A stretch of 64,000 nucleotides of DNA, from contig JAUPVS010000003.1 of the NCBI GenBank assembly GCA_030916945.1, positions 6,536 through 70,535 on the forward strand. Reading direction: 5' to 3'. Both the position numbers and the translations under genes were made by a program. The notes under the pieces are model-generated. The model had not been told where the DNA came from. It did no database searches and was given only the letters and a program-made list of their open reading frames with translations. Shown here in pieces: positions 14,854 through 47,909 of this stretch; the stretch's first letter is position 1, and every line of letters begins with the position of its first letter. This stretch comes from Patescibacteria group bacterium (lineage in GTDB: Bacteria > Patescibacteriota > Saccharimonadia > Saccharimonadales > JAUPVS01).

Positions 14854-14866
14854 TAGAGATTACCTC

Positions 14867-17721: not shown

Positions 17722-17729
17722 AGTATCAA

Positions 17730-18935
17730 ATGCCCCAAGCAAAGAAGAATCCAAAACGTACCACCAGCAAGAAGCGCCGTCCGCCGTTTTACAAACGGCA
17801 CTGGGGTAGTAACGAAGCTCGCCAGCGCACCCGGCTAATTCATCACCTCGAAAAGCTAAAACTCGAAAAGCCGCGCTACTGGTTCCGCGAACGCAAACTA
17901 TTCCATAAGATACTGATTATCCTGGCTGTACTGTTGATGCTTTGGGTTGGCACCATGTATGGCATCGCCCGTTGGTATATGGCCATCCACAGTAAAGAAC
18001 AGGTGCAGTTGGGCACGACCTTTATTTCGACCTATGCCGAGTATTACGGCTTAGACGCCAAAGAAACCTTTAAAGCTCTCAACTACGACATGGGTATGCG
18101 CCACTTTAGGCTGGTTAGCTATTGGGAAGAGATCGAAGAAACACCGGGCGTCTACGACTTTAGCGACCTGGACTGGCAGATGAAGATGGCCGAAGAAAGC
18201 GGTGCCAAGGTGTCGCTATCGCTCGGCTTGCGCCAGCCGCGTTGGCCAGAATGCCACATGCCTACTTGGGCGCGCTACGCACCCAAAGACAAATGGGAAC
18301 CCGCATTAATGACCTTCATTCAAAAAGTAGTTGAGCGCTACAAGGACAGTCCCGCCCTGCAAACCTACCAGCTCGAGAACGAGTTCTTCTTAAAGGCCTT
18401 TGGCGAATGTACCGACTTTGATCGTAACCGTCTCATTAAAGAATTCAACTTGGTTAAACAGCTCGACACCAACACTCCAGTCATCATTACGCGCAGTAAC
18501 AACGCCCTGGGCTTGCCAGTTGGGCAACCGACGCCCGATAAATTTGGTGTGTCGGTCTACAAGCGGGTTTGGGACAAGAACATTACCAAGCGTTATTTTG
18601 AATATCCATTCCCGGCCTGGTTTTACGGCTTTTTGGCTGGTGCTGGCCAGATTGTAACCGGTAAGGATATGATCATCCACGAACTCCAGGCTGAAGCTTG
18701 GCTGCCCGAAGGCTACCTAATGCCGACGGCGCCAATTGAAGAACAGAACAAGTCGATGAATGCCGAACGCCTGCGTGACCGGATTGAATACGGCAAGGCC
18801 ACCGGCATGAAGACAATCGACCTATGGGGCGCCGAATGGTGGTATTGGCGCAAAACCAAACTAAACGACCCCAGCCTGTGGGACACCGTCCGCCAAGAGA
18901 TTCAAGACACCCAGATAACAAACGCCTATCTGTAG
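17730..18935 (+). CDS. membrane-anchored glycoside hydrolase, clan GH-A (TIM-barrel, GH42/GH5-like)
   Basis: 401 aa with a basic N-terminus plus one TM. WEEIEETPGVYDFSDLDWQM and the acid/base-type motif YQLENEF are typical of clan GH-A. The exact family was not resolved. Confidence 0.55.
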   Translation: MPQAKKNPKRTTSKKRRPPFYKRHWGSNEARQRTRLIHHLEKLKLEKPRYWFRERKLFHKILIILAVLLMLWVGTMYGIARWYMAIHSKEQVQLGTTFISTYAEYYGLDAKETFKALNYDMGMRHFRLVSYWEEIEETPGVYDFSDLDWQMKMAEESGAKVSLSLGLRQPRWPECHMPTWARYAPKDKWEPALMTFIQKVVERYKDSPALQTYQLENEFFLKAFGECTDFDRNRLIKEFNLVKQLDTNTPVIITRSNNALGLPVGQPTPDKFGVSVYKRVWDKNITKRYFEYPFPAWFYGFLAGAGQIVTGKDMIIHELQAEAWLPEGYLMPTAPIEEQNKSMNAERLRDRIEYGKATGMKTIDLWGAEWWYWRKTKLNDPSLWDTVRQEIQDTQITNAYL

Positions 18936-18936
18936 G

Positions 18937-19908
18937 CTAGGCGGCTAAGCCTTCAAGCACAACAGCGGCTTGAACGTGAATATCGTTAGCTACGGCGTGA
19001 CCATGACCAACTAGTCGCAGGGTATTGCTACGCTGTCTATAGCCAGGTTTATCTAAGGTCGAACTGAGTATGTCGTCACTGGCTAATTCCGACTCGCTAC
19101 CCCATGCCACCGTGGCACTGGCATTATGGTTAGCCAACAAAGCTTGCCGATAATTAGCAAAGAAACGCCCCTGGCCAATATAGCGCGCAATCGCCAGGTT
19201 AGTTAGGCGAGCTAGTCCGATGTTGTAGCTCAGAGCACCCACCGAGTCTTCGCGGGCATCTTCAAAGGTTGGCAAGTTGCAAGCCTGCACATACTCTTCG
19301 AGCCGTCCGGCCGACTTAGCAAATGCCAAACCAAGCGAAACTAAGTTACGAGACTCCACCGAAGCCGGCTCCAATAGAATAAGACTTTTTACACTGGCAT
19401 GTCCCATGCTAGCAGCTAATGCTTTTTCGACACCATAGGAGTAGCCGTAGTGGTCAACCGTATCAATGCCAGCCTGGCTTAAATAGTGGTCGAGCGGCGC
19501 TACTAGTGGTCGCCCATTACCACGGACTACCTTGTGTCGCTCGGAGTGCATTAGCCAATTACCGTCGTAACCTGGGCCACTGGGGTTGGCAAAGGCAACA
19601 ACACGCTTATTTGGGTTGGTACCGGCGATGGTTGCAATGGCGTACAACTGATTTGCATCGAGCGGATTAGCCATGGGTAAGTGTATCGCCAGTGCTTCAG
19701 CCGGATCGTGTTCAGTTGGACGGATGTCGATGTAAGGCAACCCTTTCTGCTCAAGCATATCTTCGGTGATGCCTTGGCTGGCCAAAAATTCCTGGTAAGT
19801 CTTAAAGCTAGCTTGAAAGTCGGCAAATTCGGCCACCGCATCAACTGCGTCGGGCGAAAACACGCCGTAGCCTTCAAGTCGTTCGGCTGTAGAGTCGGCA
19901 ATATTCAT
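18937..19908 (-). CDS. alpha/beta-hydrolase-fold protein
   Basis: Nucleophile-elbow motif GYSYG, and a late His in GHGHAV. The start is set at ATG 19908 (a minus-strand TATAAT at 19922..19917 lies 8 nt upstream). Confidence 0.55.
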   Translation of the reverse strand: MNIADSTAERLEGYGVFSPDAVDAVAEFADFQASFKTYQEFLASQGITEDMLEQKGLPYIDIRPTEHDPAEALAIHLPMANPLDANQLYAIATIAGTNPNKRVVAFANPSGPGYDGNWLMHSERHKVVRGNGRPLVAPLDHYLSQAGIDTVDHYGYSYGVEKALAASMGHASVKSLILLEPASVESRNLVSLGLAFAKSAGRLEEYVQACNLPTFEDAREDSVGALSYNIGLARLTNLAIARYIGQGRFFANYRQALLANHNASATVAWGSESELASDDILSSTLDKPGYRQRSNTLRLVGHGHAVANDIHVQAAVVLEGLAA

Positions 19909-19973
19909 GATACGCAATTATAACACCAAATAAGGGCTATGTCTAACGAGCGTTATCCGTTACAATAGTGCTT

Positions 19974-20426
19974 ATGAAGAAGAAAAAGACCGCCAGCGGT
20001 AGTATTCAGAACCGTCGCGCCCGCTTCGATTACGATCTGGGCGATTCTTTGGTGGTCGGCATTCAACTTAATGGCCGCGAAACCAAAGCCCTACGCATGG
20101 GTCACGGCCACCTTAAAGGCGCCTACGTAGTGGCCAAAGACGGTGAGCTGTGGCTCTTAAACGCCACTATCACCAGTGTCCCCGGCGTAGCCCTAGAAGA
20201 GAACGAGCAAACGCGCAGCCGCAAGCTACTCGCCAAAAAGCGCGAGATCGCCGAGCTACTGGCCGCCAAAGACCAAGGCCAGAGCATTATTCCTTTAGAA
20301 ATCCTGACACACGGCCGTTACATCAAGCTACGCATCAGTGCCGGTAAGGGCAAAAAGCTGCACGACAAGCGCCAAACCATCAAAGCCCGCGACCAAGCCC
20401 GCGACATCCGCCAGCTCGGCCACTAG
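19974..20426 (+). CDS. smpB: SsrA-binding protein SmpB
   Basis: IQNRRARFDYDLGDSLVVGIQLNGRETKALR, and a basic C-terminal tail. TACAAT at 19961..19966 lies 7 nt before ATG 19974. Confidence 0.9.
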   Translation: MKKKKTASGSIQNRRARFDYDLGDSLVVGIQLNGRETKALRMGHGHLKGAYVVAKDGELWLLNATITSVPGVALEENEQTRSRKLLAKKREIAELLAAKDQGQSIIPLEILTHGRYIKLRISAGKGKKLHDKRQTIKARDQARDIRQLGH

Positions 20427-20744: not shown

Positions 20745-20813
20745 AGTTCTAAGCACGTCCGTTAGCGGCATTCAAAGCAGTCGAAAGGCTTCTTTTTTGT
20801 TATAATCCACAGC

Positions 20814-21203
20814 ATGAGTCAACACACAATGTTTATCGAGTACTTCGTTGATGACATGGATTATTACAAAAAGCTTTTTTGCGATGTACTTGGCTTTAGC
20901 GTCGACAGGGATGATGGTACTTTCGTCCAACTGACACGCGGAAACGATAAGATTCTACTGGATGGCGAAGCCAAAAGCCAGAAGCCGGACTACCATTTTT
21001 ATAACAAAATAGATAAGAACACTAATGGTATCGGTATCGAATCATGCTTTGTGGTTGACGATCTTGACGAGACCTACACCAAAGCTAAAAATTTCCCTGG
21101 TCTTAAATTAACACCAATCAAACACAAGTCATGGGGTGTTAGGGATTTTCGCATTGTTGTACCAGACAACTACTACCTTCGCATCACCGAAATGATCAAC
21201 TAG
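20814..21203 (+). CDS. VOC-family (glyoxalase/bleomycin-resistance fold) protein
   Basis: 129 aa with FCDVLGFSV...WGVRDFRIVVPDNYYLRITE, typical of the VOC family. TATAAT at 20801..20806 lies 7 nt before the ATG. Confidence 0.7.
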   Translation: MSQHTMFIEYFVDDMDYYKKLFCDVLGFSVDRDDGTFVQLTRGNDKILLDGEAKSQKPDYHFYNKIDKNTNGIGIESCFVVDDLDETYTKAKNFPGLKLTPIKHKSWGVRDFRIVVPDNYYLRITEMIN

Positions 21204-22980: not shown

Positions 22981-23298
22981 CTAGTACGGATTCCTGTGAG
23001 CCTGGTCGTAAATATACTTGGTTTGGTCAAGCAAGTACGTGGCGGCGTCTTTGGTTACGTAATGATAACAACGCGTACCAACACTAGTAGATTTAACCAA
23101 ACCAACTTTTTTCAGAGCCTTAACGTGGTTTGAGGCAGTTGGTTGCGGGATACCGACAGTCCGGGAGATTTCAGAAATGCAGCTTTCTTCTTTAGTGGTT
23201 GGAGCAAAGCCGGCCGACTTATCGGCAATATGCATAAACACCCGTAGACGTACGGGATTAGATAACACCCTATAATACTGTGCTAACTTGTCATCCAT
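22981..23298 (-). CDS. ArsR/SmtB-family transcriptional repressor
   Basis: YRVLSNPVRLRVFMHI and ISEISRTVGIPQPTASNHVKALKKVGLV (winged HTH). It is first in a three-gene minus-strand operon with gaps of 2 and 4 nt. Confidence 0.85.
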   Translation of the reverse strand: MDDKLAQYYRVLSNPVRLRVFMHIADKSAGFAPTTKEESCISEISRTVGIPQPTASNHVKALKKVGLVKSTSVGTRCYHYVTKDAATYLLDQTKYIYDQAHRNPY

Positions 23299-23329
23299 GT
23301 AAAATATTGTACAGTATACATTCTAAAAG

Positions 23330-23341: not shown

Positions 23342-23454
23342 TTAACGAAATATCGCAAACCAAACGTGAAGATTCGTCGCTAAAGTTCCGCAAACCAGTC
23401 AAATAGGAGGAGCCAAGTATTTACAAATAATCTATTTTGTGTTATTATACTATC

Positions 23455-24732
23455 ATGAATATCGTGTCTAGTCCGGATAACATTGAGGTTCTACCCGTTG
23501 ATTACTTCAGGAAGCCCCGTGACTTAGTAGCAAATCCACGACTCAGCGAAAGCCAAGTTGAATCCCTGTATCGTCTGGAAACGCTAGACAGCATAACCAG
23601 TGGATCACCGAACGAACCCGCAATTGATCTAATAGATCTTACCGATCAACCCCGTTACTCTTCAGAGGACGCTCTACAAGGACCCGCACTGATTGGTATC
23701 GCCTCGGACGAACAAGGAATTCAATTTAGCTTTTGGGAAAGATTAGGCCATGCAACTATTCACGGACAACACTCCGACCGTATTGACGCGAAAGGTGGCA
23801 GCCACGGCATGTTGGGCGCAATTAAAGGGGCAGAAACAGCAGGGCTCCTCAGGGTAGTTGCCGACACAGACGAACCATGTCTCGTTAAAGTTTCAGGGCA
23901 ATATGATGATTTTTTACTGCAGTGGAACGGCAATAAGCCTCATTATAGTGATCTTCTTGATCTTGGCCCGCTGTTTAGATCAGTCCGAACTCCTGGATCG
24001 AACTTCGTTAGCGAAGCTATTGCGCGTAACTCGGTTTTTGGCAAGCTAGGCACCGTCCTGGCAGGCCCAGTTAGCGATCACCCAGAAAAAGCTCTTTTTG
24101 CTGAAGTACCCGGGTTATTGAGCTATGAACTGGGTAGTTTCAGCATAAGGAACATTGTCCTAAAACGTGAGCTTACCACTGCAGAATTTAACGATGGTAA
24201 GCCATTGTTTTCAAAACTCGATGCACTCGGCAACTCTAGTGAACGACTCAGTAAACTCGAATCAATTAATGGAATTTCGATCGCCGAACTCGAAGAAAGA
24301 ATGCGTCCATCAAGCTTATCAATTGCCGGGTTCCTTGGTGCCAATGAATCACTGGTCGATCGACTAGTAGAGGACAACGATACGGTAGCTAATGCTGGGC
24401 TAACTCACGAGATGGTGGCGGAACCATTACAGAAACTATGCGTCCTAGTAGACCAAGGATTGATCGGTGAAGGGGTTAGCCCGGTTACAATGGCTGGCAA
24501 AACCTACCTAATAGACGTCACACGTTGGATGGGCTCCCAAACAAGTCCGTTCGGCGATGAAGGTCACGGTGCTTCTTACGATGTATGCGCGCAAAGATTA
24601 ACCGACGGAAAGACGCTCTCATTCTCCGCGTTGATCCCCAAAATGATTGCCGCCTATGGCTTTTACGAAGGCGATACTTCATACCGGGTTAGCCCGACCA
24701 GCATCATAGACTTCTTTGGACTCAAAAAATAG
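23455..24732 (+). CDS. hypothetical protein (425 aa), no recognised family
   Basis: A long clean ORF. The start is set at ATG 23455 (TATTAT/TATACT immediately upstream). No TM and no recognisable motif. Confidence 0.5.
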   Translation: MNIVSSPDNIEVLPVDYFRKPRDLVANPRLSESQVESLYRLETLDSITSGSPNEPAIDLIDLTDQPRYSSEDALQGPALIGIASDEQGIQFSFWERLGHATIHGQHSDRIDAKGGSHGMLGAIKGAETAGLLRVVADTDEPCLVKVSGQYDDFLLQWNGNKPHYSDLLDLGPLFRSVRTPGSNFVSEAIARNSVFGKLGTVLAGPVSDHPEKALFAEVPGLLSYELGSFSIRNIVLKRELTTAEFNDGKPLFSKLDALGNSSERLSKLESINGISIAELEERMRPSSLSIAGFLGANESLVDRLVEDNDTVANAGLTHEMVAEPLQKLCVLVDQGLIGEGVSPVTMAGKTYLIDVTRWMGSQTSPFGDEGHGASYDVCAQRLTDGKTLSFSALIPKMIAAYGFYEGDTSYRVSPTSIIDFFGLKK

Positions 24733-29864: not shown

Positions 29865-30371
29865 CTATAACTCCTTCTCTTTGTACTTTTGCCACTTGTC
29901 TGACTCGGCTCTTATCTCGCTCTCTAGCTCTTCTTGGCTTAGTCCATTTTCTGAAACGATAAAACTAATGTCATAGTCATCACCAAATATCTTTTGGCAG
30001 ATATATCGCTGTCTTTCGATTTGAAATTTTCCTGTGACAAACAATAATTTACGCCAGTGATTTTTATCGACGATTAGCTTTGAATATTCTGCATTCTCTT
30101 CGGTATCTCTGGCTCGTTCTTCCAATATTATTGCCGCTTCGGGTACGCCACTTTGTATTGCTATATCCGACATTGATTTTGCTTCCGTAATTATGGGCTG
30201 GTAGTTATGCGAATAAGAGACCTTGCCCGTAAAAATAATTTGTTCGGCGTTTTCGGATTTATAAAGCTCAGCTGCTTTTTTAGCACGGTTTATAGATTCT
30301 TTAGGGAGACTTCCATCTTGATAAACATCCCACCCCAACACAATAATCACGTCATACTTTGGCTGTTTCAT
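29865..30371 (-). CDS. DUF218 (YdcF/ElyC/SanA-like) domain protein
   Basis: 168 aa. DVIIVLGWDV...IIFTGK...EENAEYSK...LLFVTGKFQ matches the DUF218 layout. The gene is visibly AT-rich. Confidence 0.65.
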   Translation of the reverse strand: MKQPKYDVIIVLGWDVYQDGSLPKESINRAKKAAELYKSENAEQIIFTGKVSYSHNYQPIITEAKSMSDIAIQSGVPEAAIILEERARDTEENAEYSKLIVDKNHWRKLLFVTGKFQIERQRYICQKIFGDDYDISFIVSENGLSQEELESEIRAESDKWQKYKEKEL

Positions 30372-30491
30372 TAACGGTTATCGTATTTGTGTTTAGTCAT
30401 ATTAGCTACATTCTACTACACAGTTTCGTGATAATGGCACGAACTTCTGACCACTCCTATTCTTTTATATCTCGTAAGCTATACTTAACCT

Positions 30492-31211
30492 ATGACCATC
30501 GAAGAAAAAATTGAACGCTCGAAAAGCCAGGAAAGAATTGATTTTTCAAAATACCAATCCGCTGGGCAAGATGATCCGTTAGTAAAGCTTGAGGACAGTG
30601 AAAAAATTCTTGTTGAACCTTGCTGGACGGTTGATGGGGACTGGGAAGGCGAGCGCTACCGCGACTATATTGCCGATCACCCAGAGTACGACGGCGTTTA
30701 TGTGCGCACAGAGCTAGCAACCAGACTCCAAACAGCCGCCCAATCTCTTCCAAATAATTATCGTCTGGTCGTTCGAGCCGGACATCGCCCAATTGAAGTT
30801 CAAAGAAGAATCTTGATCGACTGTGCCGACGACTATAAAATCGACTACCCCGGAGCTTCTGATAAAGAAGCCCTGGAACACGCCCGAACATTCGTAAGTG
30901 ACCCCGACCTGACACTGCCACCACACGTTTGTGGAGCGGCCGTTGATGTTGAAGTGATGGACACCAAAGAAGGCAAGTTACTCGACTTTGGCAGCACGCT
31001 CAATGACGATAGCGAAAAATCATTCTTGTACTATCCGGACCTAACCAAGGAACAAAAAGACAATCGCCTCATGCTGGTAGCCGCCATGCTCAACGCCGGC
31101 TTGGCTAGCTGCAAACCTGAGTGGTGGCATTTTTCGTACGGCGATCAAGTCTGGGCCTGGTTTTATGAGTATGACCAGAGTCTGTATAGCCCAGTAGACG
31201 TTTTGTTATGA
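30492..31211 (+). CDS. D-alanyl-D-alanine dipeptidase (VanX/DdpX-type, peptidase M15D)
   Basis: The zinc and catalytic motifs are AGHRPIEVQ, PPHVCGAAVDV (H-x-x-G-x-A-x-D) and EWWHFSYGD. TATACT at 30480..30485 lies 6 nt before the ATG. Confidence 0.8.
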   Translation: MTIEEKIERSKSQERIDFSKYQSAGQDDPLVKLEDSEKILVEPCWTVDGDWEGERYRDYIADHPEYDGVYVRTELATRLQTAAQSLPNNYRLVVRAGHRPIEVQRRILIDCADDYKIDYPGASDKEALEHARTFVSDPDLTLPPHVCGAAVDVEVMDTKEGKLLDFGSTLNDDSEKSFLYYPDLTKEQKDNRLMLVAAMLNAGLASCKPEWWHFSYGDQVWAWFYEYDQSLYSPVDVLL

Positions 31212-31218
31212 TATAGCC

Positions 31219-31725
31219 ATGAATGTCCAAGTTATCCAATTGCATATTAGCGCCTATAGATTCGATGGCTCGACCAATCCATATACAGAGCCTCACGGCA
31301 AGGCACCAATTACTCTCAAAGACTTAGCTCAAATTATTTCAAACAAAATTAGTGAGTTAAAGGGTCCAAAAACAATGCTGGTTCGTGGCGTGCAGTCAGG
31401 TAAGCACAGCATCACCAAGTCCGAGCTAATTGCGCTTATAAAAGAAAACGGCAGTGAATACAGCAACTCGGACGAGCCAAATACTATTTTTGCGGCTCCC
31501 TATGACCAACACGCAGTTGAGCATATACTGGAAGGTTTTCATAAATATAAACCTAAGAGCGATGAAAGCCCGCAGCAGTCAATTGACTTATGGTTGATAT
31601 ATAATGCCCGGGCGTACAAAAATGTTCCATACCAACACCCCCGTCACAATGTAGAGGCCAAAGATAAATGGCAAAGGCTATCGCCACAAGAATCTGGTTT
31701 AATTGCGCTAATCGTTCTCAATTAA
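31219..31725 (+). CDS. hypothetical protein (168 aa)
   Basis: Clean ORF. TATGAT at 31207..31212 lies 6 nt before the ATG. No family recognised. Confidence 0.45.
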   Translation: MNVQVIQLHISAYRFDGSTNPYTEPHGKAPITLKDLAQIISNKISELKGPKTMLVRGVQSGKHSITKSELIALIKENGSEYSNSDEPNTIFAAPYDQHAVEHILEGFHKYKPKSDESPQQSIDLWLIYNARAYKNVPYQHPRHNVEAKDKWQRLSPQESGLIALIVLN

Positions 31726-31788
31726 TTGGCTCTGCGACAGCAACAACGTCAATTTACTTTTCTTCTTTTTTATTATATTATTAGCTTT

Positions 31789-32295
31789 ATGTCAGAGCTC
31801 ATAAGTGACCTACATCTATCACGAAGCCAGGCGACGGTTCTGGATAACGAGAACGTACAACGCTTCACGACCTTCATGCGTGCCAAGTGCAGTCAAGCTC
31901 TTGGTAAGGCCTGTGGACTAGAAGTTACTGCCTCACAAACAGACCAAACCGCCTGTGTTAGTTGCGCCGGGTGTGCAGCTCCAGCAGCACATTCTTTGTC
32001 AGCGCGCGAGCTCCCTAATTTTGCCAATGCTTTAATATTGAACTCAGACCTGGTTGAAGAACCCGACCCCAGCGTCAATCTGTCTCAACTAAAAATGGTT
32101 GAAGCGCTTGATTCTGCCATTAACGAAGAGCATCGTGGAGCAGTTATGCTTGGCCGCGCAGCCACCGTTATCGAGCCAACAGGTTACGTTCGTGTGCTAG
32201 CTGATAGCCGAATACTGTTTCCCGTTACGAACCTAGAATGCCAGGGTGGATCAATCGATCCTGGCGTGCCAGTACTAATTGATTTTCCCGCCTAG
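31789..32295 (+). CDS. hypothetical protein (168 aa) with a Cys cluster
   Basis: The start is set at ATG 31789 (TATTAT at 31776..31781, 7 nt upstream). Cys cluster: CSQALGKACGLEVTASQTDQTACVSCAGC. Confidence 0.4.
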   Translation: MSELISDLHLSRSQATVLDNENVQRFTTFMRAKCSQALGKACGLEVTASQTDQTACVSCAGCAAPAAHSLSARELPNFANALILNSDLVEEPDPSVNLSQLKMVEALDSAINEEHRGAVMLGRAATVIEPTGYVRVLADSRILFPVTNLECQGGSIDPGVPVLIDFPA

Positions 32296-32320
32296 ACAGC
32301 GTATTTGTTATACTGCCCGA

Positions 32321-32905
32321 ATGCGCAAGCTAAAAGAACCGTCTACACCACTACCAGCCCTAATCATAGATAGCCCACGTGACATAAAGGTCGATCTAGA
32401 AGGAGTGGTTGACGTTATGGCCTCGCTTGGCCTTTCAGAAAAAACCATTGCCAATACAACACTCTACATAGACAATCATCGCCACATCACCATTCTCGGT
32501 TCGGTTTGGCCAAAATACTTGTCGCGGCTGCGCTACCCACGCTTAAAGCCAACTGGTAGTGTTATTCGCTTGAGCCGCCGGCTCTACTTTACTGGCCCGA
32601 CCTACAAAACCATCAATCACACCCTGGTCCACGAAATTGAACATGCTGCCCAAATCCAACGTAAAGATCCGCGCCTGTTAATCGGCTATCTAACTCAAGT
32701 TGTTGGCGTTGGCGCTGGTATCGCGCTGGGCCTTACCAACCAGTCTGATGTGATCGTATTCAAAGTTATGATACTTTTCATAACCGCACTGTTTGGGTTG
32801 TATGCCGGCTACATGTTTTCGCTGCACGAGATGCAAGCCCGCAAACGATCCATCGGCTACAAACTCAAACAACCACTTATTCAGAAAATTGACTCTGTTA
32901 TCTAA
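32321..32905 (+). CDS. HExxH-motif membrane protein (putative zinc metalloprotease-like)
   Basis: 194 aa from MRKLKEPS (TATACT at 32309..32314, 6 nt upstream). HTLVHEIEHAAQ contains HEIEH. Two C-terminal TM segments. Confidence 0.45.
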   Translation: MRKLKEPSTPLPALIIDSPRDIKVDLEGVVDVMASLGLSEKTIANTTLYIDNHRHITILGSVWPKYLSRLRYPRLKPTGSVIRLSRRLYFTGPTYKTINHTLVHEIEHAAQIQRKDPRLLIGYLTQVVGVGAGIALGLTNQSDVIVFKVMILFITALFGLYAGYMFSLHEMQARKRSIGYKLKQPLIQKIDSVI

Positions 32906-32924
32906 ATGTTTTATTATATCGTTT

Positions 32925-33668
32925 ATGTCTACTCCTTTTTCTGATCAGTTAAATTGTATGGAAAGAATTCGAACGCAAGAGCTCGCAGAGCCTTTTGATA
33001 GAGATGATGTGATCCAAGCATTTGTGTCTCTTACCGATCAGCTTCTGAATAGGTTCATCGACTATGATTTTGTATTAGTCGAGGACACCTCTGGGCGTAT
33101 CCCTGGCTTGGTAATAGGAAAAGTTGCCGCCAACACTAGGGAAGAGTTGGGCCTTGAAAGACCGCAAGTAAAATTTGTTGGCGGGTCTAAGCTTAGCGAC
33201 ACAATTACCTTGCCCACGAATTTTATACCGCCCCAAACGGTGCCAAGCGCGCGAGCACTAATCGTCACTGAAGGGGTATTTACCGGTAAGCAAGCCAGTA
33301 AATTAGCAAACCTTTTTGCCGGCAATCGTGCATCAGAATTTGTCGATATAGCCGCTTTAGGTTCATACTCAGAATTTGCCGACATTCCTGCAGGAGTCAG
33401 CCTCTACAAAGGCGCAAGAGAGAAGGAAGGCGGCAGAGCCGTGGCTGATGCGTTTTACTATAATCGAGCCATCAAAGGCGTAACAAAACACTCAGTTAAT
33501 CGTACGCCATTTGCCACTCCTGACAGGTCTGGTTCAAGCGCAAAACGTCGTGTAAGACACGATGCTTCTGTGGTGGCCGCCCAACTTACTGAACTCGTGT
33601 TAGACGGGCTCATGGCACCGCCGCCCTATCCAGAAGTTACACCAGAAGTATCAAAAGTACTCGTGTAA
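32925..33668 (+). CDS. hypothetical protein with phosphoribosyltransferase-like motifs
   Basis: 247 aa from MSTPFSDQ (TATTAT at 32912..32917, 7 nt upstream). FVLVEDTSGRIPGLVIG and ARALIVTEGVFTGKQA resemble type-I PRTase loops. The assignment is weak. Confidence 0.4.
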   Translation: MSTPFSDQLNCMERIRTQELAEPFDRDDVIQAFVSLTDQLLNRFIDYDFVLVEDTSGRIPGLVIGKVAANTREELGLERPQVKFVGGSKLSDTITLPTNFIPPQTVPSARALIVTEGVFTGKQASKLANLFAGNRASEFVDIAALGSYSEFADIPAGVSLYKGAREKEGGRAVADAFYYNRAIKGVTKHSVNRTPFATPDRSGSSAKRRVRHDASVVAAQLTELVLDGLMAPPPYPEVTPEVSKVLV

Positions 33669-33716
33669 CCCAAAATCGGCACAGTACACTAAGAGTAGTT
33701 TTGCTATACTTCCCGC

Positions 33717-34193
33717 ATGAGCGACGCTATAAACATTGAGGAACTAAAAGCTTTTCTAATTCGCGCCAATGTGCCGCATGCCACTGGCACGGCGCAAACT
33801 AAAACGGAGGCCGACAAATCCCGCACCATCGAATTTGCCGAAGGCGATTATCGTATGCACGACAATTTCTTTGGTGGCGAACCTTACGGCGGCCGCCTGG
33901 TCATATTCCATAAAGAACAGCCTGTGTTTATGGAAGTCTACTATGGCCAAACCACCAAACCAGCCGACAAGGTCTATGGCTTCTTGCGCGAAGCCCTGCA
34001 ACATCCCGGACCTAACAACCCTTACCGCGGTCCGGCCGAATACACCAAAGGCGAGTTAACATACAAAAGCACCGTAAGCGGCGACATGGCTAGTCACACT
34101 GTTAAGGAGTGGATCTACAAGAATAACCAAGAAATCTATTGGGCCGTTGTTGTAGGCGGACTGGTCGACCAGAATGCCCAAGGGGCCATGTAG
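33717..34193 (+). CDS. hypothetical protein (DUF5680-like pattern)
   Basis: 158 aa with FAEGDYRMHDNFFGGEPYGGRLVIFHKEQPVFMEVYYGQ. The family assignment is from memory only. TATACT at 33705..33710 lies 6 nt upstream. Confidence 0.45.
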   Translation: MSDAINIEELKAFLIRANVPHATGTAQTKTEADKSRTIEFAEGDYRMHDNFFGGEPYGGRLVIFHKEQPVFMEVYYGQTTKPADKVYGFLREALQHPGPNNPYRGPAEYTKGELTYKSTVSGDMASHTVKEWIYKNNQEIYWAVVVGGLVDQNAQGAM

Positions 34194-34199
34194 CTCTGT

Positions 34200-34631
34200 T
34201 TACTTAGTCTCGGCCAGTTCTTTGATTCGTTCCATGGCCTTAGGGTAGTTGGCTGTAAAGTAGTCTTCCTGTTCGGGCGGAACATCAAAGGCTACCGTCA
34301 ATGTGGTGCTGCCGGTTTGCTCGGTTAGAGTGTAGCTTTCGGCTCCGCCAGTCCATTCTTTGGCTCGTTCTTGTTTCCCTTTATCTTGAGTGTCGGCACT
34401 GTGTCGCAACTGCAAAAATTCACCAGTCACAAGTTTTTCGACCAGGCTGGTGACGCCATAGCCGTTACCAGAGATAAACTGAACTTCATTTCCTTCTTTC
34501 AGCTCACCAACCATATATGTCCCCGGATCAATCATGCCGGCCCAGTCACGCAAGGTTGCATCTTGCCATAAAGTGTCCCAAACTTTTTGCTTGGCGGCTT
34601 TTATTTGGGTAGTGAAGTGCAATTCTTTCAT
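34200..34631 (-). CDS. SRPBCC/AHSA1-family protein
   Basis: 143 aa with FTTQIKAAKQKVWDTLWQDATLRDWAG, typical of the family. A minus-strand TAGAAT (34643..34638) lies 6 nt before the ATG. Confidence 0.7.
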   Translation of the reverse strand: MKELHFTTQIKAAKQKVWDTLWQDATLRDWAGMIDPGTYMVGELKEGNEVQFISGNGYGVTSLVEKLVTGEFLQLRHSADTQDKGKQERAKEWTGGAESYTLTEQTGSTTLTVAFDVPPEQEDYFTANYPKAMERIKELAETK

Positions 34632-34755
34632 GGCTTTATTCTAACATCCTAAGGAATACTTTATGTACCGGCAGACTACTAGAAATTTTCAGCTTGTAGT
34701 ACCGCCTTAGCCACAAGCATTTTCCTAATTTACTTAGTTATTGTATGATCACGCT

Positions 34756-34962
34756 ATGAAGTTTGAAAACTTATTGTCTAGAATTGATGCCACTATAACC
34801 CCCCGTGAAATTAGGGTTAGCAAAGACCTGGCCGAAGTGGTTGATTTGTCTTCCGAATTAACCGTTGAACAAATCCAGGAGGCATTTAGTGAGGCCTACG
34901 ACGATCCCACCAAAGACAGCATCGTCGACCCCTCGTCTCCATACTATGTTCCAGAGCCGTAA
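34756..34962 (+). CDS. small acidic hypothetical protein (68 aa)
   Basis: ATG 34756 is preferred over TTG 34741 (TATGAT at 34744..34749, 6 nt upstream). Confidence 0.35.
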   Translation: MKFENLLSRIDATITPREIRVSKDLAEVVDLSSELTVEQIQEAFSEAYDDPTKDSIVDPSSPYYVPEP

Positions 34963-35007
34963 TCGCTTGAGCTTGCTTTTAACAATAATCAATGTCTATT
35001 ATTAACC

Positions 35008-35496
35008 ATGCCTATAGTTGAACCACCGATTTATGGATTTTACGATGGTCGCCTAGAGCCACCTTCCAACGAAGATTTTCAGGAGTTCTGTACACTTAGA
35101 ATGCGGGCGGAACGGTTCTGCGACCTTGCCGGCCAAGTTCTAGAACAAGCTGAAGAGGGCCGTACAACCGGCATTACTTTTAACTTTTCGGCTTCTGTCC
35201 TGAGTGGTCTGCGTTTTGCCTTTATGTATCATGACTCGTTTAATAAGCTGGGTCTACCTTATGAAATGTCACCGGACGGTGGTCGCGACGCTTGGGAGCA
35301 AAGAACACTACCCAGTGGTCATGGCTTGCCGCTAGACGAATTGGCGGTCACGGTACGCGGCGATAAGGATTACGATATCAAGGGTCACGGCGAACTTGAC
35401 GGCGGCTTAGTAATGGTAGATTTTGAAAGCCTTACAGACATGTACTCAAAAGTAGCTCTAACGCTAAGACATTTTGACCCGCTGGATTCTAACTAG
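35008..35496 (+). CDS. hypothetical protein (162 aa)
   Basis: Clean ORF with TATTAT at 34997..35002 just upstream. No family recognised. Confidence 0.45.
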   Translation: MPIVEPPIYGFYDGRLEPPSNEDFQEFCTLRMRAERFCDLAGQVLEQAEEGRTTGITFNFSASVLSGLRFAFMYHDSFNKLGLPYEMSPDGGRDAWEQRTLPSGHGLPLDELAVTVRGDKDYDIKGHGELDGGLVMVDFESLTDMYSKVALTLRHFDPLDSN

Positions 35497-36131: not shown

Positions 36132-37556
36132 CTAAACGCCAATTATATGGCGGCATGCAATAGTAGCTACTGTGCCCGGCACTTGAGCCATAATTCCAGG
36201 AATAACCGCCGCATTAGGGTTTCGGCGGCTGGCAGCAACTGCACCGATTGCAAAAACATTAGAGAGGTAGCCTTCATTAAGGGTAGCCACCGCTCCATCG
36301 CAGGGTCGTATAGCCGGCTCGCCACTCTTTTTACCAATCAGCGCATCAATTTCATTAAATAACCGTCCGTCGCGTTGGTAACCAATTAAAGCAAACAGGT
36401 GTGGTTGCTGGAGCTTTATATTTATTCTTGTGCCGCCAATATTCAGAGTATGATCAGCCTCATCATAAATCAAAGTTCGTGCGTCGGTGACAACCAGTTC
36501 TTGCGCCAGCATACGCGAGTAGGTTTGAGCATCACGATCGATATCACCACTAATTCCCGTTAAATAGCTCTTGGCTGGATTCCTAAATAGCGGCCTATCA
36601 CCATCAACCGAGCGAGTCGGATTCTTAACGGCCTGTCTAGAATGGTGAGTGACTACCACGTAGGGAACTGTTTGTAGAGTTCGGTCTTCAAACTCATGGA
36701 TCTGCCGCAACATGGCAATAGTACTATTGCCTAACCCAAGCAGCACAATCGGACGCCCGTTGGACAATTCTTCTTCGGACAAACTACGTTGGTGACGTTC
36801 TATAATTAGTTCGTCGGAAGACAACTCGCCAAGATCGTCTAGGTTTGATCACATGCGTGTGCCATCAATAGGGCGTGGTTCGGTCGCTCCCTGAGCAAAA
36901 ACTAAATAATCACTCTTTAGCTTGGTGCCTTCCTTTGTAATTGCACGCCAGCTACCCTGTGGCTTCCGTTTAGCAGTAGCCAACTCGTCTGCAAGAACAC
37001 GCACATTAGATAGATGGACCGCGGCCACGCCTTGAAGAAAAGTTTCCATACGCCAACCCTCACGATCAGAAATTCCCAATTTACCCTTGCGCCCAAACTT
37101 TAATGCCCGTGGGTTATTAAATCCACCGCTCTGGGCCCACTGCTCGCGCCACATACCGCCTAGGCTTCCTCTTGGATCGACCATTGTAATATTATCAGGT
37201 GATGCGCCACGAATTTTAAGATAGCTGGCCAGTAAAATCGAGGCGGCACCAGCACCGGCAAACACAAACCGACGGTTGGCGAGACCTTCATAATATTCAT
37301 CTGTATCATATGGCATGTCTAGTAAACTAGCGCGAGGTGTCGGTACATCATTATTTGGTGGTAGCACATCATCGCGAAGTGCGTTATTAACGTACCAACG
37401 CTGAATCAGAGCATCCCTGCCAATTGCCAAACCTATATCGGCGCCTAGGGCATCAACATCATTGTCTCTAAGCGAGTAGGCACTGGGGTAATAAGCTGCC
37501 TCGGCCAAGCGCCAGGCTACTTCATAATCTTCTTGTTGATACGGGGAATACGCCAT
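36132..37556 (-). pseudogene. two-dinucleotide-binding-domain flavoprotein (FMO / N-hydroxylating monooxygenase-like) interrupted by a single in-frame TGA (36851..36849)
   Basis: The N-terminal ORF (36849..37556) has the FAD motif FVFAGAGAAS. The C-terminal ORF (36132..36824) has a second Rossmann motif, IVLLGLGNST, and VFAIGAV. I translated the junction by hand as ...GTRM-TGA-SNLDDLGELSSDE, all in one frame. Confidence 0.55.
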
Positions 37557-37735
37557 GATTGCGACAGTATATTACAATCAATAGCTATTTACAATTGTTT
37601 GCTTCTATTGTGTTGGTATCGTGAGATGCTTCCGGCAGCCCATTAGCCAACGTCTTGCTATAATACATTCATGCAGACCGTCCTTCAACAGGTGCCACCC
37701 GGCGTACGTTTATTTAAGAAACTGGGGTATTAGCT

Positions 37736-38534: not shown

Positions 38535-38921
38535 TTAAAGCCGCACCAGTTCGCCGCGGCGTTTACGAATGTTCTTATAGTCCCATTGAATGGTTTGCGA
38601 TTTCTCGAGCCAACGCTGAAGGCTATCGCTATCGATCTGATCGGCTTGAGTATAGCGGGCTTCGGCCGCCTTAAAACTACCCTCGGCACTTAAACCGGGC
38701 TCGTCAAATGACTGGCCACTCCAAAACAACAGGCGAACGCAGTCTTTGAGGACGTCGTAGCCAACAATTGGGTTATCGTTTATAAACCAAACTGGCGCAC
38801 CATGCCAAATTTTATTCTTAGCAGTGGGCATGGCAGACATAATTTGCGCGGCCAGCTGCTGGCAGATGGCCTTGTTTGGTTCGGTTTGCTGATCGTTATA
38901 GGCGGTGATGTCTTTGTTCAT
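38535..38921 (-). CDS. DUF1801 (YdhG-like) domain protein
   Basis: 128 aa with KIWHGAPVWFINDNPIVGY...CVRLLFWSGQSF. A minus-strand TATACT (38934..38929) lies 7 nt before the ATG. Confidence 0.7.
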   Translation of the reverse strand: MNKDITAYNDQQTEPNKAICQQLAAQIMSAMPTAKNKIWHGAPVWFINDNPIVGYDVLKDCVRLLFWSGQSFDEPGLSAEGSFKAAEARYTQADQIDSDSLQRWLEKSQTIQWDYKNIRKRRGELVRL

Positions 38922-39026
38922 ACCTACCAGTATAACGAACCGATGCCAACGGTCTAGCCTTCTTTAATCTTTTGACTATCTACTCATACCCCTATATCAT
39001 AAGCGTAATAATAAGTAGGGGCGAGA

Positions 39027-40594: not shown

Positions 40595-40631
40595 ACTTGA
40601 TTAGTACCGGATATTATTGCATACTTACTTA

Positions 40632-41363
40632 ATGCCCCTAGACAGAACAGCCGAACTTTCGTTTGAAGCAGTTGATGACACAGCCGTTAGCACATTGCTT
40701 TCGGTAGGCGTAGTAGTTATGAAGAATGTCGTCTCGCCGGAAGGCCTAAACGGTATTGCCTGCGCCTACAAGCGTTCTCGACGCCTAGCTTTGCCCCGAC
40801 GCGCCTTAGCCCGAGGCCTGGCCCTAGCTGGAGCCAGCGATAGTACACTACATAACACTGTTAAGGCCAAGCCGGTTGAATCGCGCCTGCCGGGCTTTCC
40901 GGTTCACATGCGCACTGCCAAGCAGGCCTTTACAGAAGTTAACCGGCTGCATGGACAATTCTTTGAACACCCGGCCATTCGACAGCGCTACCCCGGTGCA
41001 GTTGACCTTAACCAGGCGGCTTTCCCCATTAATGTCGGTAGCGAAGCTTTTCCGTTGCATCAAGATACCCAAGGTGTCAGCGGGTTGGGCTTTGCTGTTC
41101 AACCCACCCGTACACGCTGGCAAATCCACCAAGTCATCGACCGTTCGCCCGGACCGGTGGAGTTTACATTTGACACCGAGCCCGGTGACACCACCGTACT
41201 ACTGGAACGTCAGGGGCCGGAGCCAAAACAGATGTGGTCCGAGCAAGGCTACTACGACATGGCACCTGACGGCAGTCTGCCTCACAGCGGCATCAACTTA
41301 GAGGATCGCCACCGCTACGGCATGGGGCTGTTCCACCTCGACTACATCGAAGAAATGCTCTAA
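40632..41363 (+). CDS. hypothetical protein, possibly an Fe(II)/2-oxoglutarate (PhyH-like) dioxygenase
   Basis: 243 aa from MPLDRTAE (CATACT at 40620..40625, 6 nt upstream). It has an HxD-type FPLHQDTQG and a later His in LPHSG. The assignment is weak. Confidence 0.4.
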   Translation: MPLDRTAELSFEAVDDTAVSTLLSVGVVVMKNVVSPEGLNGIACAYKRSRRLALPRRALARGLALAGASDSTLHNTVKAKPVESRLPGFPVHMRTAKQAFTEVNRLHGQFFEHPAIRQRYPGAVDLNQAAFPINVGSEAFPLHQDTQGVSGLGFAVQPTRTRWQIHQVIDRSPGPVEFTFDTEPGDTTVLLERQGPEPKQMWSEQGYYDMAPDGSLPHSGINLEDRHRYGMGLFHLDYIEEML

Positions 41364-41598: not shown

Positions 41599-41660
41599 CA
41601 AGTTAAGATCCCCATTATCTCTGTTTACAATTCCTATTATTGTGTTAAAGTAAGTTCATT

Positions 41661-42179
41661 ATGGGATACCTGCTCAAACACGAAAGAGTGGCTCTGCATG
41701 AACGTCTTGCCGAATATGAGCAACGACAGAAAGCACTCGCCCTAGACAAAGAAGCTGCAGTCGCCGAAGGTGGTGATGGCTGGCACGACAACTCGGCCTT
41801 TGACGCTGTCATTTCGGACTCTAAGCAACTGGCCGAACGAGGACGGCACGTTCTTAGGTTGCTCGAAGAGTCAGAGGACATCGACTATCCTGATCCTTCA
41901 TCTCGTGTAGCTAGTGTAGGAAGCCGCCTGCACATTGATATGTTTGGTGACCTTGTTGTGCTTGATTTAGTTGGTGCCCTCGAAGCCTACCGTGAAATTC
42001 CTGAAATGATTGATGATGCCGAGTATATCTGCACCAGCTATAAGTCACCCCTAGGAGAAGCTGTTTTAGGCTGCATGCCCGACCAGCAGGCAACTTACAG
42101 TGTAGAGGATGGACGAAGCTTTAGCGTTACGATAATCGAGATTGATCAAAATGCCATCCGCGAAGCATTCCAATCCTAG
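41661..42179 (+). CDS. GreA/GreB-family-like protein
   Basis: 172 aa. N-terminal coiled coil with GDGWHDNSAFDAV (compare the Gre acidic-tip region). C-terminal domain VGSRLHIDMFGD...YKSPLGEAVLGCMPDQQATYSVEDGRSFSVTIIEID (compare S.SPLG.ALLGK..GD). Confidence 0.65.
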   Translation: MGYLLKHERVALHERLAEYEQRQKALALDKEAAVAEGGDGWHDNSAFDAVISDSKQLAERGRHVLRLLEESEDIDYPDPSSRVASVGSRLHIDMFGDLVVLDLVGALEAYREIPEMIDDAEYICTSYKSPLGEAVLGCMPDQQATYSVEDGRSFSVTIIEIDQNAIREAFQS

Positions 42180-47888: not shown

Positions 47889-47909
47889 TTGTGTGGTATA
47901 GTGGATGCC

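What the first reader, a model, noticed from the sequence alone, without database searches (positions are those of the whole stretch)
30480..34758. Pervasive leaderless-type gene starts: TAnnnT box 5-9 nt before the start codon, no Shine-Dalgarno
I located many cases by hand. Each entry gives the hexamer coordinates, the start codon and the spacer in nt.

Plus strand:
- TACAAT 243-248 > ATG 257 (8)
- TATAAT 14972-14977 > 14987 (9)
- TATAAT 17716-17721 > 17730 (8)
- TACAAT 19961-19966 > 19974 (7)
- TATAAT 20801-20806 > 20814 (7)
- TATACT 30480-30485 > 30492 (6)
- TATGAT 31207-31212 > 31219 (6)
- TATTAT 31776-31781 > 31789 (7)
- TATACT 32309-32314 > 32321 (6)
- TATTAT 32912-32917 > 32925 (7)
- TATACT 33705-33710 > 33717 (6)
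- TATGAT 34744-34749 > 34756 (6)
- CATACT 40620-40625 > 40632 (6)
- TATAGT 47897-47902 > 47910 (7)

Minus strand:
- TATAAT 8501-8496 > 8488 (7)
- TATAAT 19922-19917 > 19908 (8)
- TACAAT 23311-23306 > 23298 (7)
- TAGAAT 34643-34638 > 34631 (6)
- TATACT 38934-38929 > 38921 (7)

Transcription normally starts about 6-8 nt after the -10 box, so these mRNAs would begin at or next to the start codon. In contrast, the atp genes, the aquaporin, 46177 and 62842 have strong AAGGAGG-type SDs. The genome therefore appears to use two initiation modes, with leaderless starts concentrated in single-gene accessory units. The pattern also corrects about 12 ORF-track start sites.
Basis: seen in the sequence. Interest (0 to 1): 0.6.

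Follow-up and report, generated by a model that had tools for sequence, protein, structure and literature searches.

The report
Leaderless-type gene starts in a Saccharibacteria genome
In this Saccharibacteria (CPR) genome about a third of genes, and about half of those that must carry their own promoter, have a promoter -10 box 6-9 bases before the ATG, so their mRNAs probably start at the start codon with no ribosome-binding leader; this mode is well known in Actinobacteria and Deinococcus, and I found no report of it for this lineage.

Summary
All 19 hexamer/ATG coordinates check out. I took the first ATG of each self-called gene without reference to the motif. Under that rule 26 of 72 window genes have TAnnnT 6-9 nt upstream. 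Dinucleotide shuffles give about 10, and 63 control loci from other phyla give 10%. Near-consensus boxes (at least 5/6 of TATAAT) number 18 against 1.8 expected.

The window is a Candidatus Saccharibacteria MAG. The same peak, with a mode at spacer 6, appears in 59 metagenomic loci of at least 4 kb (of 80 fetched) from relatives (220/634 genes).

The box behaves as a sigma-70 promoter element, not an mRNA signal:
- Its free positions spell TATAAT.
- It carries an extended -10 TGn and a weak -35 T.
- It sits before 48% of divergently transcribed genes but only 8% of overlapping operon-internal genes.
- It is tied to ATG 90% of the time.
- It is kept in 34 of 41 smpB orthologues.

AAGGAG-type Shine-Dalgarno sites are the second enriched motif, so two initiation modes coexist.

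This is the known "group C" leaderless architecture, here in a lineage where I found no report of it. One sub-claim fails: the boxes mark first genes of transcription units in general, not mainly accessory genes. No 5'-end data exist for this organism, so leaderless transcription remains an inference.

The parts
243..259 (+). TACAAT, 8 nt, ATG 257; AddA/UvrD-type helicase-nuclease, 1093 aa
   Evidence: The UvrD domain starts at residue 11. Orthologues in L094/L096 have TGcGATAAT 6-8 nt before the start.
7168..7185 (+).
   Evidence: The Response_reg domain starts at residue 4, which fixes the start.
8486..8501 (-). TATAAT, 7 nt, ATG 8488; Crp-family regulator; ambiguous
   Evidence: The alternative ATG 8497 lies inside the box and is the start used in public calls (231 aa).
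14972..14989 (+). TGaTATAAT, 9 nt, ATG 14987; glutaredoxin, first gene of a 4-gene operon
   Evidence: L007 keeps gcaagcgTGaTATAAT with 8 nt before the ATG. Seven of 15 orthologues have a box.
17705..17732 (.). Bidirectional core: TATAAT 17716-17721 (+), 8 nt, ATG 17730 (401-aa GH-like protein); TATTAT 17722-17717 (-), 9 nt, ATG 17707 (GT2). The two ATGs are 22 nt apart.
   Evidence: The same divergent pair has 18-27 nt between CAT and ATG in relatives. Public calls for the GT2 gene are split between 17707 and 17716.
19906..19922 (-). TGtTATAAT, 8 nt, ATG 19908; 323-aa protein
   Evidence: Public call is 323 aa.
19961..19976 (+). TACAAT, 7 nt, ATG 19974; SmpB
   Evidence: TAnnnT lies 5-10 nt upstream in 34 of 41 orthologues, and five of the other seven have CATACT/CATAAT.
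20801..20816 (+). TGtTATAAT, 7 nt, ATG 20814; glyoxalase-family protein
   Evidence: The domain starts at residue 8.
23296..23311 (-). TACAAT, 7 nt, ATG 23298; ArsR-type regulator, first gene of an ArsR-MFS pair
23443..23457 (+).
   Evidence: The public annotation uses this start.
30369..30385 (-).
   Evidence: The DUF218 domain starts at residue 7.
30480..30494 (+). TATACT, 6 nt, ATG 30492; M15 D-Ala-D-Ala dipeptidase
   Evidence: Public call is 239 aa.
31207..31221 (+). TGtTATGAT, 6 nt, ATG 31219. The box overlaps the TGA stop (31209-31211) of the upstream gene.
   Evidence: Public call is 168 aa.
31753..31791 (+). TTTACT, 17 nt, TATTAT, 7 nt, ATG 31789
   Evidence: Public call is 168 aa.
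32309..32323 (+). TGtTATACT, 6 nt, ATG 32321; HExxH membrane protein, 194 aa
   Evidence: Homologues of 186-189 aa align to this Met, not to the SD-like alternative at 32417. The L167 orthologue has TATAAT, 8 nt, ATG.
32889..32927 (+). TTGACT, 17 nt, TATTAT, 7 nt, ATG 32925. The -35 lies inside the 3' end of the upstream gene.
   Evidence: Public call is 247 aa.
33705..33719 (+). TGcTATACT, 6 nt, ATG 33717; DUF5680 protein
34629..34643 (-). TGtTAGAAT, 6 nt, ATG 34631; 143-aa protein
34744..34758 (+). TATGAT, 6 nt, ATG 34756; 68-aa protein
34997..35010 (+).
37554..37594 (-).
38919..38956 (-). TAGACC, 16 nt, TATACT, 7 nt, ATG 38921; DUF1801 protein
40620..40634 (+). CATACT, 6 nt, ATG 40632; weak box (C at position 1)
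   Evidence: The public annotation uses this start. C-initial boxes occur before smpB in relatives.
41624..41663 (+).
47864..47912 (+). Terminator-like hairpin plus T-run, then TGgTATAGT, 7 nt, ATG 47910; GNAT acetyltransferase
   Evidence: The public annotation uses this start.
51198..51217 (-).
   Evidence: The Response_reg domain starts at residue 3.
51757..51774 (+).
   Evidence: The Cation_ATPase_N domain starts at residue 3.
8524..14875 (-). atp operon (atpB-E-F-H-A-G-D): the contrasting SD-led mode (AAGGAGGT, AAGGAG, AAGGA; includes GTG starts)
   Evidence: Orthologues have SD and no box.

Best explanation
The hexamers are -10 elements of housekeeping (sigma-70-type) promoters. Many are of the extended -10 class (TGnTAnnnT) with only a weak -35. 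They sit so that RNA polymerase starts at, or within 1-3 nt of, the A of the ATG. The resulting mRNA has no 5' leader and no Shine-Dalgarno site. By analogy with Actinobacteria, Deinococcus and E. coli model leaderless mRNAs, ribosomes then load directly on the 5'-terminal AUG.

This is the default arrangement for first genes of transcription units in this Saccharibacteria lineage, at about half of them. Because promoter and translation signal collapse into about 15-40 bp, promoters abut or overlap the stop codon of the preceding gene, and divergent genes can share an intergenic region of about 20 bp.

Genes inside operons, and a minority of first genes such as the atp operon, the aquaporin and 47189, use canonical AAGGAG-type SD sites or tight coupling.

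Shown: the sequence architecture, its statistics and its conservation. Inferred: the transcription start position and the translation mechanism.
For: 1. Position. Under a motif-blind start rule, TAnnnT peaks sharply at spacer 6-9. The window counts are 8, 9, 5, 7 against about 1.8 per position further upstream. Relatives give 89, 50, 51, 39 against about 18. The mode at spacer 6 puts the A of ATG at the 7th base after the hexamer, which is the usual TSS distance across bacteria (PMC12641261).

2. Excess over chance. The z-scores against dinucleotide shuffles are 5.4 for the window, 18 for relatives and 3.7 for controls from other phyla. Near-consensus boxes: 18/71 against 1.8 expected in the window, 148/654 against 23 in relatives, and 16/910 against 23 in controls.

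3. Promoter identity, from 256 aligned boxes. The unconstrained hexamer positions are T 48%, A 68%, A 59%, which spells TATAAT. G at -2 is 52% and T at -3 is 48%, giving TGn. T is 52% at the position 17 bp upstream where a -35 begins. The base before the ATG is a pyrimidine in 72% and G in 9%.

4. Distribution. Boxes precede 48% of divergently oriented genes, 54% of genes at same-strand gaps of 11-30 nt, and only 8% of overlapping operon-internal genes. SD of at least 5 nt is essentially absent from box genes.

5. Start codon. ATG accounts for 90% of box-associated starts against 70% of SD-associated starts (p 2e-6).

6. Starts are real. Pfam domains begin at residues 3-11 for 7183, 51200, 51772, 30371, 20814 and 257. 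Homologue N-termini fix 32321. Independent public gene calls agree.

7. Conservation. smpB keeps the box at 5-10 nt in 34 of 41 relatives while the flanks diverge. The atp and MIP orthologues keep SD instead.

8. De novo k-mers in -20..-4. AAGGAG is 43 against 2.2 expected, TATAAT 76 against 8.2, and TACAAT 32 against 4.8. Controls show only SD-like words.
Against: - There are no transcript 5'-end or N-terminal peptide data for this organism or, in the library I could search, for any Saccharibacteria at single-base resolution. The only TSS set I found cited, for N. lyticus, was inferred from RNA-seq coverage and shows unusually variable -10-to-TSS distances.
- Spacers of 8-9 nt could give 1-3 nt leaders rather than strictly leaderless mRNAs.
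- In the tandem focal array there is no room for terminators, and none are enriched (17 found against 15 expected). Read-through from upstream promoters must therefore also produce leadered, SD-less copies of these genes.
- About 10 of the 26 TAnnnT hits in the window are expected by chance, so individual weak boxes (TAGGCT 16354, TAAAGT 27663, CATACT 40632) are uncertain.
- Some orthologues lack the box, for example the L008 401-aa gene and the L169 HExxH gene.
Confidence: 0.85

Rival explanations
1. The A/T-rich box is an mRNA-level, non-SD translation-initiation signal within a leader, as in Bacteroidota ('group B' genomes), and not a promoter. Transcripts would start further upstream.
For: - The motif lies where an RBS would lie.
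- Bacteroidota control loci also show some TAnnnT excess at spacer 6.
- Tandem genes with 7-25 nt gaps and no terminators must be co-transcribed at least in part.
Against: - A group-B signal should occur before internal operon genes too. Here overlapping internal genes are at background (8%) against 48% for divergent genes.
- The logo has features read on DNA by RNA polymerase: TGn directly upstream, a -35 T at 17 bp, and TATAAT at the free positions.
- A canonical SD (AAGGAG) is strongly enriched in the same genomes, so the anti-SD is in use.
Confidence: 0.05
2. The boxes are real promoters, but translation starts at downstream in-frame codons, so the mRNAs have ordinary leaders and the listed ATGs are not start codons.
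For: One automatic call for 32321 chose a downstream ATG (32417) with AAGGAG 11 nt upstream. Calls differ between identical contigs (L170 against L171-L173).
Against: - Pfam domains begin 3-11 residues after the listed ATG in at least six genes.
- Homologues of the 32321 protein extend to that Met with conserved residues.
- Orthologue alignments begin at residues 1-3 for smpB, Grx and the 401-aa protein.
- Box-associated starts are 90% ATG.
Confidence: 0.04
3. The pattern is a compositional or selection artefact: AT-rich intergenic DNA plus hand-picking of ATGs that happen to follow TAnnnT.
For: TAnnnT is a loose pattern. 10% of all ATGs have one at spacer 5-9, and about 10 of 71 gene starts are expected to have one at spacer 6-9 by shuffling.
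Against: - A motif-blind start rule still gives z 5.4 for the window and z 18 for relatives.
- Other offsets in the same sequences are at background.
- Near-consensus boxes are ten-fold enriched.
- Control phyla run through the same pipeline show none of this.
Confidence: 0.01

Closest known systems
Leaderless transcription in 'group C' bacterial genomes (GeneMarkS-2 classification; Mycobacterium tuberculosis, Streptomyces, Corynebacterium, Deinococcus deserti)
   Same: - A Pribnow-type box lies 6-8 nt from the start codon of first genes in operons.
- SD sites serve the remaining genes.
- An estimated 25-50% of transcription units are leaderless (PMC6028130).
- Here the TAnnnT mode is at spacer 6-7, 48% of divergent first genes carry a box, and AAGGAG is enriched elsewhere.
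   Different: - The lineage differs. Group C was described as mostly Actinobacteria and Deinococcus-Thermus. I found no paper reporting it for Saccharibacteria or CPR.
- This genome is tiny and moderate in GC (49%), not GC-rich.
- Extended -10 TGn is prominent.
- Promoters are packed against the preceding stop codon.
Extended -10 (TGnTATAAT) promoters
   Same: TG lies one base upstream of the hexamer in 33% of boxes (G 52%, T 48%), with only a weak -35.
   Different: This is a promoter sub-class, not an initiation mode. It explains how such short upstream regions can suffice.
Bidirectional promoters with overlapping -10 elements on opposite strands (described for E. coli and other bacteria; recalled from my own knowledge, not checked in the library)
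   Same: At 17707(-)/17730(+) the two -10 hexamers overlap in 5 of 6 positions. The same divergent pair in relatives has 18-27 nt between start codons.
   Different: Here both divergent transcripts would be leaderless, so the whole intergenic region is the shared core promoter. This was not tested beyond sequence.
Non-SD upstream motif of Bacteroidota ('group B')
   Same: An A/T-rich motif lies about 6-12 nt before the start, with no SD.
   Different: The group B motif occurs before internal operon genes as well and is not a promoter (PMC6028130). Here internal genes lack the motif and SD is used.

Membership tests
Group C / leaderless-rich bacterial genome | -10 (Pribnow) motif localised about 6-10 nt upstream of the start codons of first genes in operons | tested here: met
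   There is a peak at spacer 6-9 in the window and in 59 related loci. Boxes precede 48% of divergent genes against 8% of overlapping internal genes.
Group C / leaderless-rich bacterial genome | The motif is a promoter element and not an RBS (sigma-70 -10 consensus, upstream promoter features) | tested here: met
   The free positions spell TATAAT, with TGn and a -35 T at 17 bp. TATAAT and TACAAT are the top non-SD k-mers.
Group C / leaderless-rich bacterial genome | SD-type RBS used by internal and leadered genes | tested here: met
   AAGGAG is 43 against 2.2 expected in -20..-4. The atp operon, MIP and 47189 use SD, and their orthologues keep SD.
Group C / leaderless-rich bacterial genome | Start codon at the mRNA 5' end is AUG (or GUG) | tested here: met
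   ATG is 90% of box-associated starts against 70% of SD-associated starts.
Group C / leaderless-rich bacterial genome | Mapped transcription start coincides with the start codon (5' UTR of 0-5 nt) | not testable with these tools
   No 5'-end data are available. This is inferred from the 7-nt rule.
Group C / leaderless-rich bacterial genome | Leaderless mRNAs are translated (protein N-terminus at the listed Met) | tested here: inconclusive
   Domain boundaries and homologue N-termini support the starts, but there is no proteomic evidence.
Bidirectional overlapping -10 promoter | -10 hexamers on opposite strands overlap, with divergent starts about 18-25 bp apart | tested here: met
   17716-17721 (+) and 17722-17717 (-), with ATGs 22 nt apart; 18-27 nt in relatives. 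Activity was not tested.

The most novel reading that the evidence does not exclude
Saccharibacteria, and possibly more of the CPR/Patescibacteria, would be a further major bacterial lineage, beside Actinobacteria and Deinococcus-Thermus, in which leaderless mRNAs are the default for about half of transcription units. In this reading promoters are ultra-compact, overlap upstream stop codons, and are sometimes shared by two divergent leaderless genes in about 20 bp. This has not been described, it would fit the Terrabacteria affinity of CPR, and it matches the leaderless-rich Actinobacteria on which cultivated members live.
Probability: 0.45. Interest if true: 0.55.

Novelty: new member of a known kind. 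Interest (0 to 1): 0.4.

Why it matters
- **Annotation.** Gene starts in CPR MAGs are called by tools tuned to SD. Identical DNA here received different starts in different public assemblies (162 or 194 aa; 271 or 274 aa; 116 or 168 aa). A leaderless model would fix that.
- **Genetics.** Genetic systems for Saccharibacteria are just appearing. Knowing that TGnTATAAT plus 6-7 nt plus ATG is a native expression signal gives a minimal cassette design.
- **Biology.** The arrangement shows how a roughly 1-Mb genome saves intergenic space. It also adds a data point on how widely 5'-AUG initiation is used outside Actinobacteria and Deinococcus. The mechanism itself is not new.

Tried and rejected
- **Intrinsic terminators between the tandem focal genes.** These were not enriched (17 found against 15.0 +/- 3.7 in shuffles), so I cannot show that the focal genes are separate transcription units.
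- **Generic two-hexamer promoter scan.** It was only modestly enriched (33 against 19.3 +/- 4.5) because -35 elements are weak. It did recover 31789, 32925, 37556, 38921 and 41661.
- **Orthologues of the focal-region genes in about 750 kb of related loci.** None were found by tblastn. Conservation of those particular promoters could be tested only for 32321, through a database search (box kept in L167/L168, not in L169).
- **My motif-guided start picker.** It chose several wrong starts (22765, 50424, 7264, 32417), so I did not use it for any statistic.
- **Rfam.** It found only tRNA-Asn, so no leader RNAs or riboswitches compete for these upstream regions.
- **Literature.** Six full-text searches found no paper on leaderless genes or SD usage in Saccharibacteria/CPR beyond the loss of anti-SD in some Parcubacteria. 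The GeneMarkS-2 supplementary tables and the TM7x transcriptome paper (PMID 35975994) are not held, so an existing group-C assignment cannot be excluded.
- **Scope beyond Saccharibacteria.** Only one Gracilibacteria locus and one short Paceibacterota locus were in hand, which is too little to judge.

Full report
**What the window is.**
The window has about 49% GC.
- Its SmpB is 83%, 66% and 52% identical to SmpB of three Candidatus Saccharibacteria MAGs. All other phyla are at 47% or less.
- Exact protein look-ups place the window in an NCBI MAG labelled 'Patescibacteria group bacterium', with locus tags QG553_194 to QG553_241.
- Near-identical contigs occur in a series of Logan assemblies.

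**Check of the observation.**

To avoid circularity I called genes with a self-trained codon model and took the first ATG of each, without looking at upstream motifs.
- 26 of 72 genes then have TAnnnT at spacer 6-9. The per-position counts are 8, 9, 5 and 7, against about 1.8 further upstream.
- Dinucleotide shuffles of the upstream 40 nt give 10.0 +/- 2.8 against 25/71 observed, z 5.4. Other offsets in the same sequences give 5-15 of 71.
- Boxes matching at least 5/6 of TATAAT number 18, against 1.8 +/- 1.3 expected and 2-4 at other offsets.
- The identical pipeline on 63 loci from other phyla, fetched by the same SmpB scan, gives 89/889 = 10%. Those loci show no excess of strong boxes: 16/910 against 23 expected.

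The pattern is therefore real and is not a by-product of AT-rich intergenic DNA.

**It is a property of the lineage.**
- The three Saccharibacteria genome loci give 20/57.
- A metagenome scan used an alignment of the 401-aa protein encoded at 17730 and returned 80 loci. In the 59 loci of at least 4 kb (668 kb), 220/634 genes carry the box.
- The histogram there is 89, 50, 51 and 39 at spacers 6-9, on a flank of about 18, with z 18 against shuffles.
- In the 36 loci whose SmpB is at least 50% identical to the window's, the fraction is 131/348.

**What the box is.**
I aligned 256 boxes.
- The three unconstrained hexamer positions are T 48%, A 68% and A 59%, which spells TATAAT.
- G is 52% and T 48% at the two positions that make an extended -10 TGn.
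- T is 52% at the position 17 bp upstream where a -35 hexamer would begin.
- The base just before the ATG is a pyrimidine in 72% and G in only 9%. This fits a pyrimidine-purine start site with the A of ATG as +1.

The modal spacer of 6 puts that A at the seventh base after the hexamer. That is where transcription starts across bacteria (PMC12641261). It is also the spacing reported for leaderless genes of M. tuberculosis (PMC6028130).

The box follows promoter logic, not RBS logic:

| Upstream context | Genes with box |
|---|---|
| Divergently oriented | 48% |
| Same strand, gap 11-30 nt | 54% |
| Same strand, gap 31-80 nt | 40% |
| Same strand, overlapping (operon-internal) | 8% |

Strong SD is essentially never present together with a box. 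Box-associated candidate starts are ATG in 90% of cases, against 70% for SD-associated ones (p 2e-6). That is expected if a 5'-terminal AUG is the recognition signal.

A motif-free k-mer comparison of -20..-4 against -60..-27 returns exactly two signals:
- AAGGAG: 43 against 2.2 expected.
- TATAAT and TACAAT: 76 against 8.2, and 32 against 4.8.

Control phyla return only SD-like words.

**Are the ATGs the real starts?**
Pfam domains begin within a few residues of the listed Met:

| Gene start | Domain | First residue matched |
|---|---|---|
| 7183 | Response_reg | 4 |
| 51200 | Response_reg | 3 |
| 51772 | Cation_ATPase_N | 3 |
| 30371 | DUF218 | 7 |
| 20814 | Glyoxalase | 8 |
| 257 | UvrD | 11 |

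One focal gene has a competing downstream ATG with an SD-like AAGGAG (32417, used by one public call of 162 aa). For it, three homologues of 186-189 aa align with conserved residues back to the Met at 32321.

Public gene calls on independent contigs give 239, 168, 168, 194, 247, 158, 143, 68 and 162 aa across the focal array. They also match 85, 401, 323 and 150 aa at 14987, 17730, 19908 and 19974, and 167, 243 and 425 aa at 47910, 40632 and 23455.

Two cases stay ambiguous: 8488 against 8497, and 17707 against 17716. Nine of the 19 listed starts differ from the naive longest ORF. The 'corrections' are thus real relative to that track but mostly not new relative to public annotation.

**Conservation.**
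- For smpB, 34 of 41 orthologues have TAnnnT 5-10 nt before the orthologous ATG. Five of the other seven have CATACT or CATAAT at a similar distance. The flanks are unalignable.
- The close relative L007 keeps gcaagcgTGaTATAAT-8-ATG before glutaredoxin and TGtTATAAT-7-ATG before smpB.
- AddA orthologues at 31-43% identity have TGcGATAAT 6-8 nt before the start.
- Orthologues of SD-led genes (MIP, atpD, atpE, atpA, atpB) have SD and no box.
- The state is not fixed gene by gene. CobA is operon-internal in the window but has a box in 18 of 25 relatives.

**The flagged interval, 30480-34758.**
It holds eight small genes: an M15 D-Ala-D-Ala dipeptidase, an HExxH membrane protein, a DUF5680 protein and five without Pfam matches.
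- Seven are on the + strand with gaps of 7-63 nt. Each has its own box 6-7 nt before the ATG.
- The box of 31219 overlaps the TGA stop of the preceding gene.
- The -35 of 32925 lies inside the preceding coding region.
- The genes have no homologues in about 750 kb of related loci, and GC dips to 44.5% here. 'Accessory' is therefore fair for this stretch.

Elsewhere the same architecture heads core genes and operons: smpB, addA, the P-type ATPase, RR-HK, ArsR-MFS and Grx-CobA-kinase-nuclease.

No terminators are detectable between the tandem genes. Read-through transcripts must also exist, and how SD-less internal copies are translated from them is open.

**Mechanism.**
- Shown: the DNA architecture, its statistics and its conservation.
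- Inferred: RNA polymerase holoenzyme uses TGn/-10 contacts, initiates at the A of ATG, and the 5'-AUG mRNA is bound directly by ribosomes, as established for leaderless mRNAs in other bacteria.

I put 0.85 on this. The main uncertainty is the lack of 5'-end data and the share of 8-9-nt spacers, which may give 1-3-nt leaders.

**Comparison with what is known.**
This is the 'group C' pattern of GeneMarkS-2: a Pribnow box 6-8 nt from the start of first genes, SD elsewhere, and 25-50% leaderless units. It was described as typical of Actinobacteria (90%) and Deinococcus-Thermus (97%) and rare elsewhere. Every sequence-level defining feature tested here is met. The experimental ones could not be tested.

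Six full-text searches found no report of leaderless initiation in Saccharibacteria or CPR.
- The nearest item is the loss of the anti-SD in some Parcubacteria.
- One study used 188 RNA-seq-inferred TSSs of N. lyticus and noted unusually variable -10-to-TSS distances.
- The GeneMarkS-2 supplementary tables are not held, so a prior silent classification cannot be excluded.

**Verdict.**
I rate it a new member of a known kind. It is a solid and useful finding for CPR annotation and genetics, but not surprising in mechanism. Interest 0.4.

Noticed in passing
window 36849-36851 (minus strand), within 36132-37556: A TGA stop splits a 474-aa ORF into 235-aa and 230-aa pieces. Three otherwise identical public contigs (L170, L171, L173) have CGA (Arg) there, a single-base difference over 1425 nt. 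It could be a strain-specific pseudogene or a sequence error.
   Followed up: partly
window 17705-17732; L112 9943-9962, L094 9948-9968 and others: The divergent GT2 and 401-aa genes have start codons only 22 nt apart, with -10 boxes overlapping on opposite strands. The same pair in relatives has 18-27 nt between CAT and ATG. This looks like a conserved bidirectional promoter serving two leaderless genes.
   Followed up: partly
window 47864-47912: A GC-rich hairpin (CACCCCGtgcaaGCGGGGTG) with a T-run is followed within 8 nt by TGgTATAGT and then ATG 47910. Terminator, promoter and start codon fit in 49 nt.
   Followed up: no
window 15253, 15825, 28332, 35500, 39764, 63454: Operon-internal genes with gaps of -1 to 8 nt have neither SD nor -10 box.
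   Followed up: no
L170 vs L171-L173 (window 31219-33668): Public automatic gene calls for the same genes differ between assemblies: 116/168/162/236 aa against 168/168/194/247 aa. I confirmed sequence identity to the window only for L171 and did not compare L170 over this stretch. The GT2 gene is likewise called at 271 or 274 aa. Start calling appears unstable at SD-less genes.
   Followed up: partly
window 28000-35000: GC dips to 44.5% (28-32 kb). The eight focal genes have no homologues in about 750 kb of related Saccharibacteria-like loci. This is likely a variable or accessory island.
   Followed up: partly
window 56279-62731 (minus): A giant 2150-aa protein with Laminin_G, fn3, Kelch and purple-acid-phosphatase-N domains. 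No box or SD was found at the first ATG (62731). A second ATG at 62683 has a weak AAGG.
   Followed up: no
control loci L021, L040, L067 (Bacteroidota): The control set shows a small TAnnnT spike at spacer 6 (39 against about 15). The control loci with the highest fraction of box-carrying genes are Bacteroidota, along with AT-rich Prochlorococcus and Acholeplasmataceae loci. This is consistent with the known non-SD upstream motif of Bacteroidota.
   Followed up: no
window 15253 vs 25 orthologues: The CobA/BtuR-like gene is operon-internal and box-less in the window but has a box 5-10 nt upstream in 18 of 25 relatives. Leaderless status changes with operon rearrangement.
   Followed up: partly
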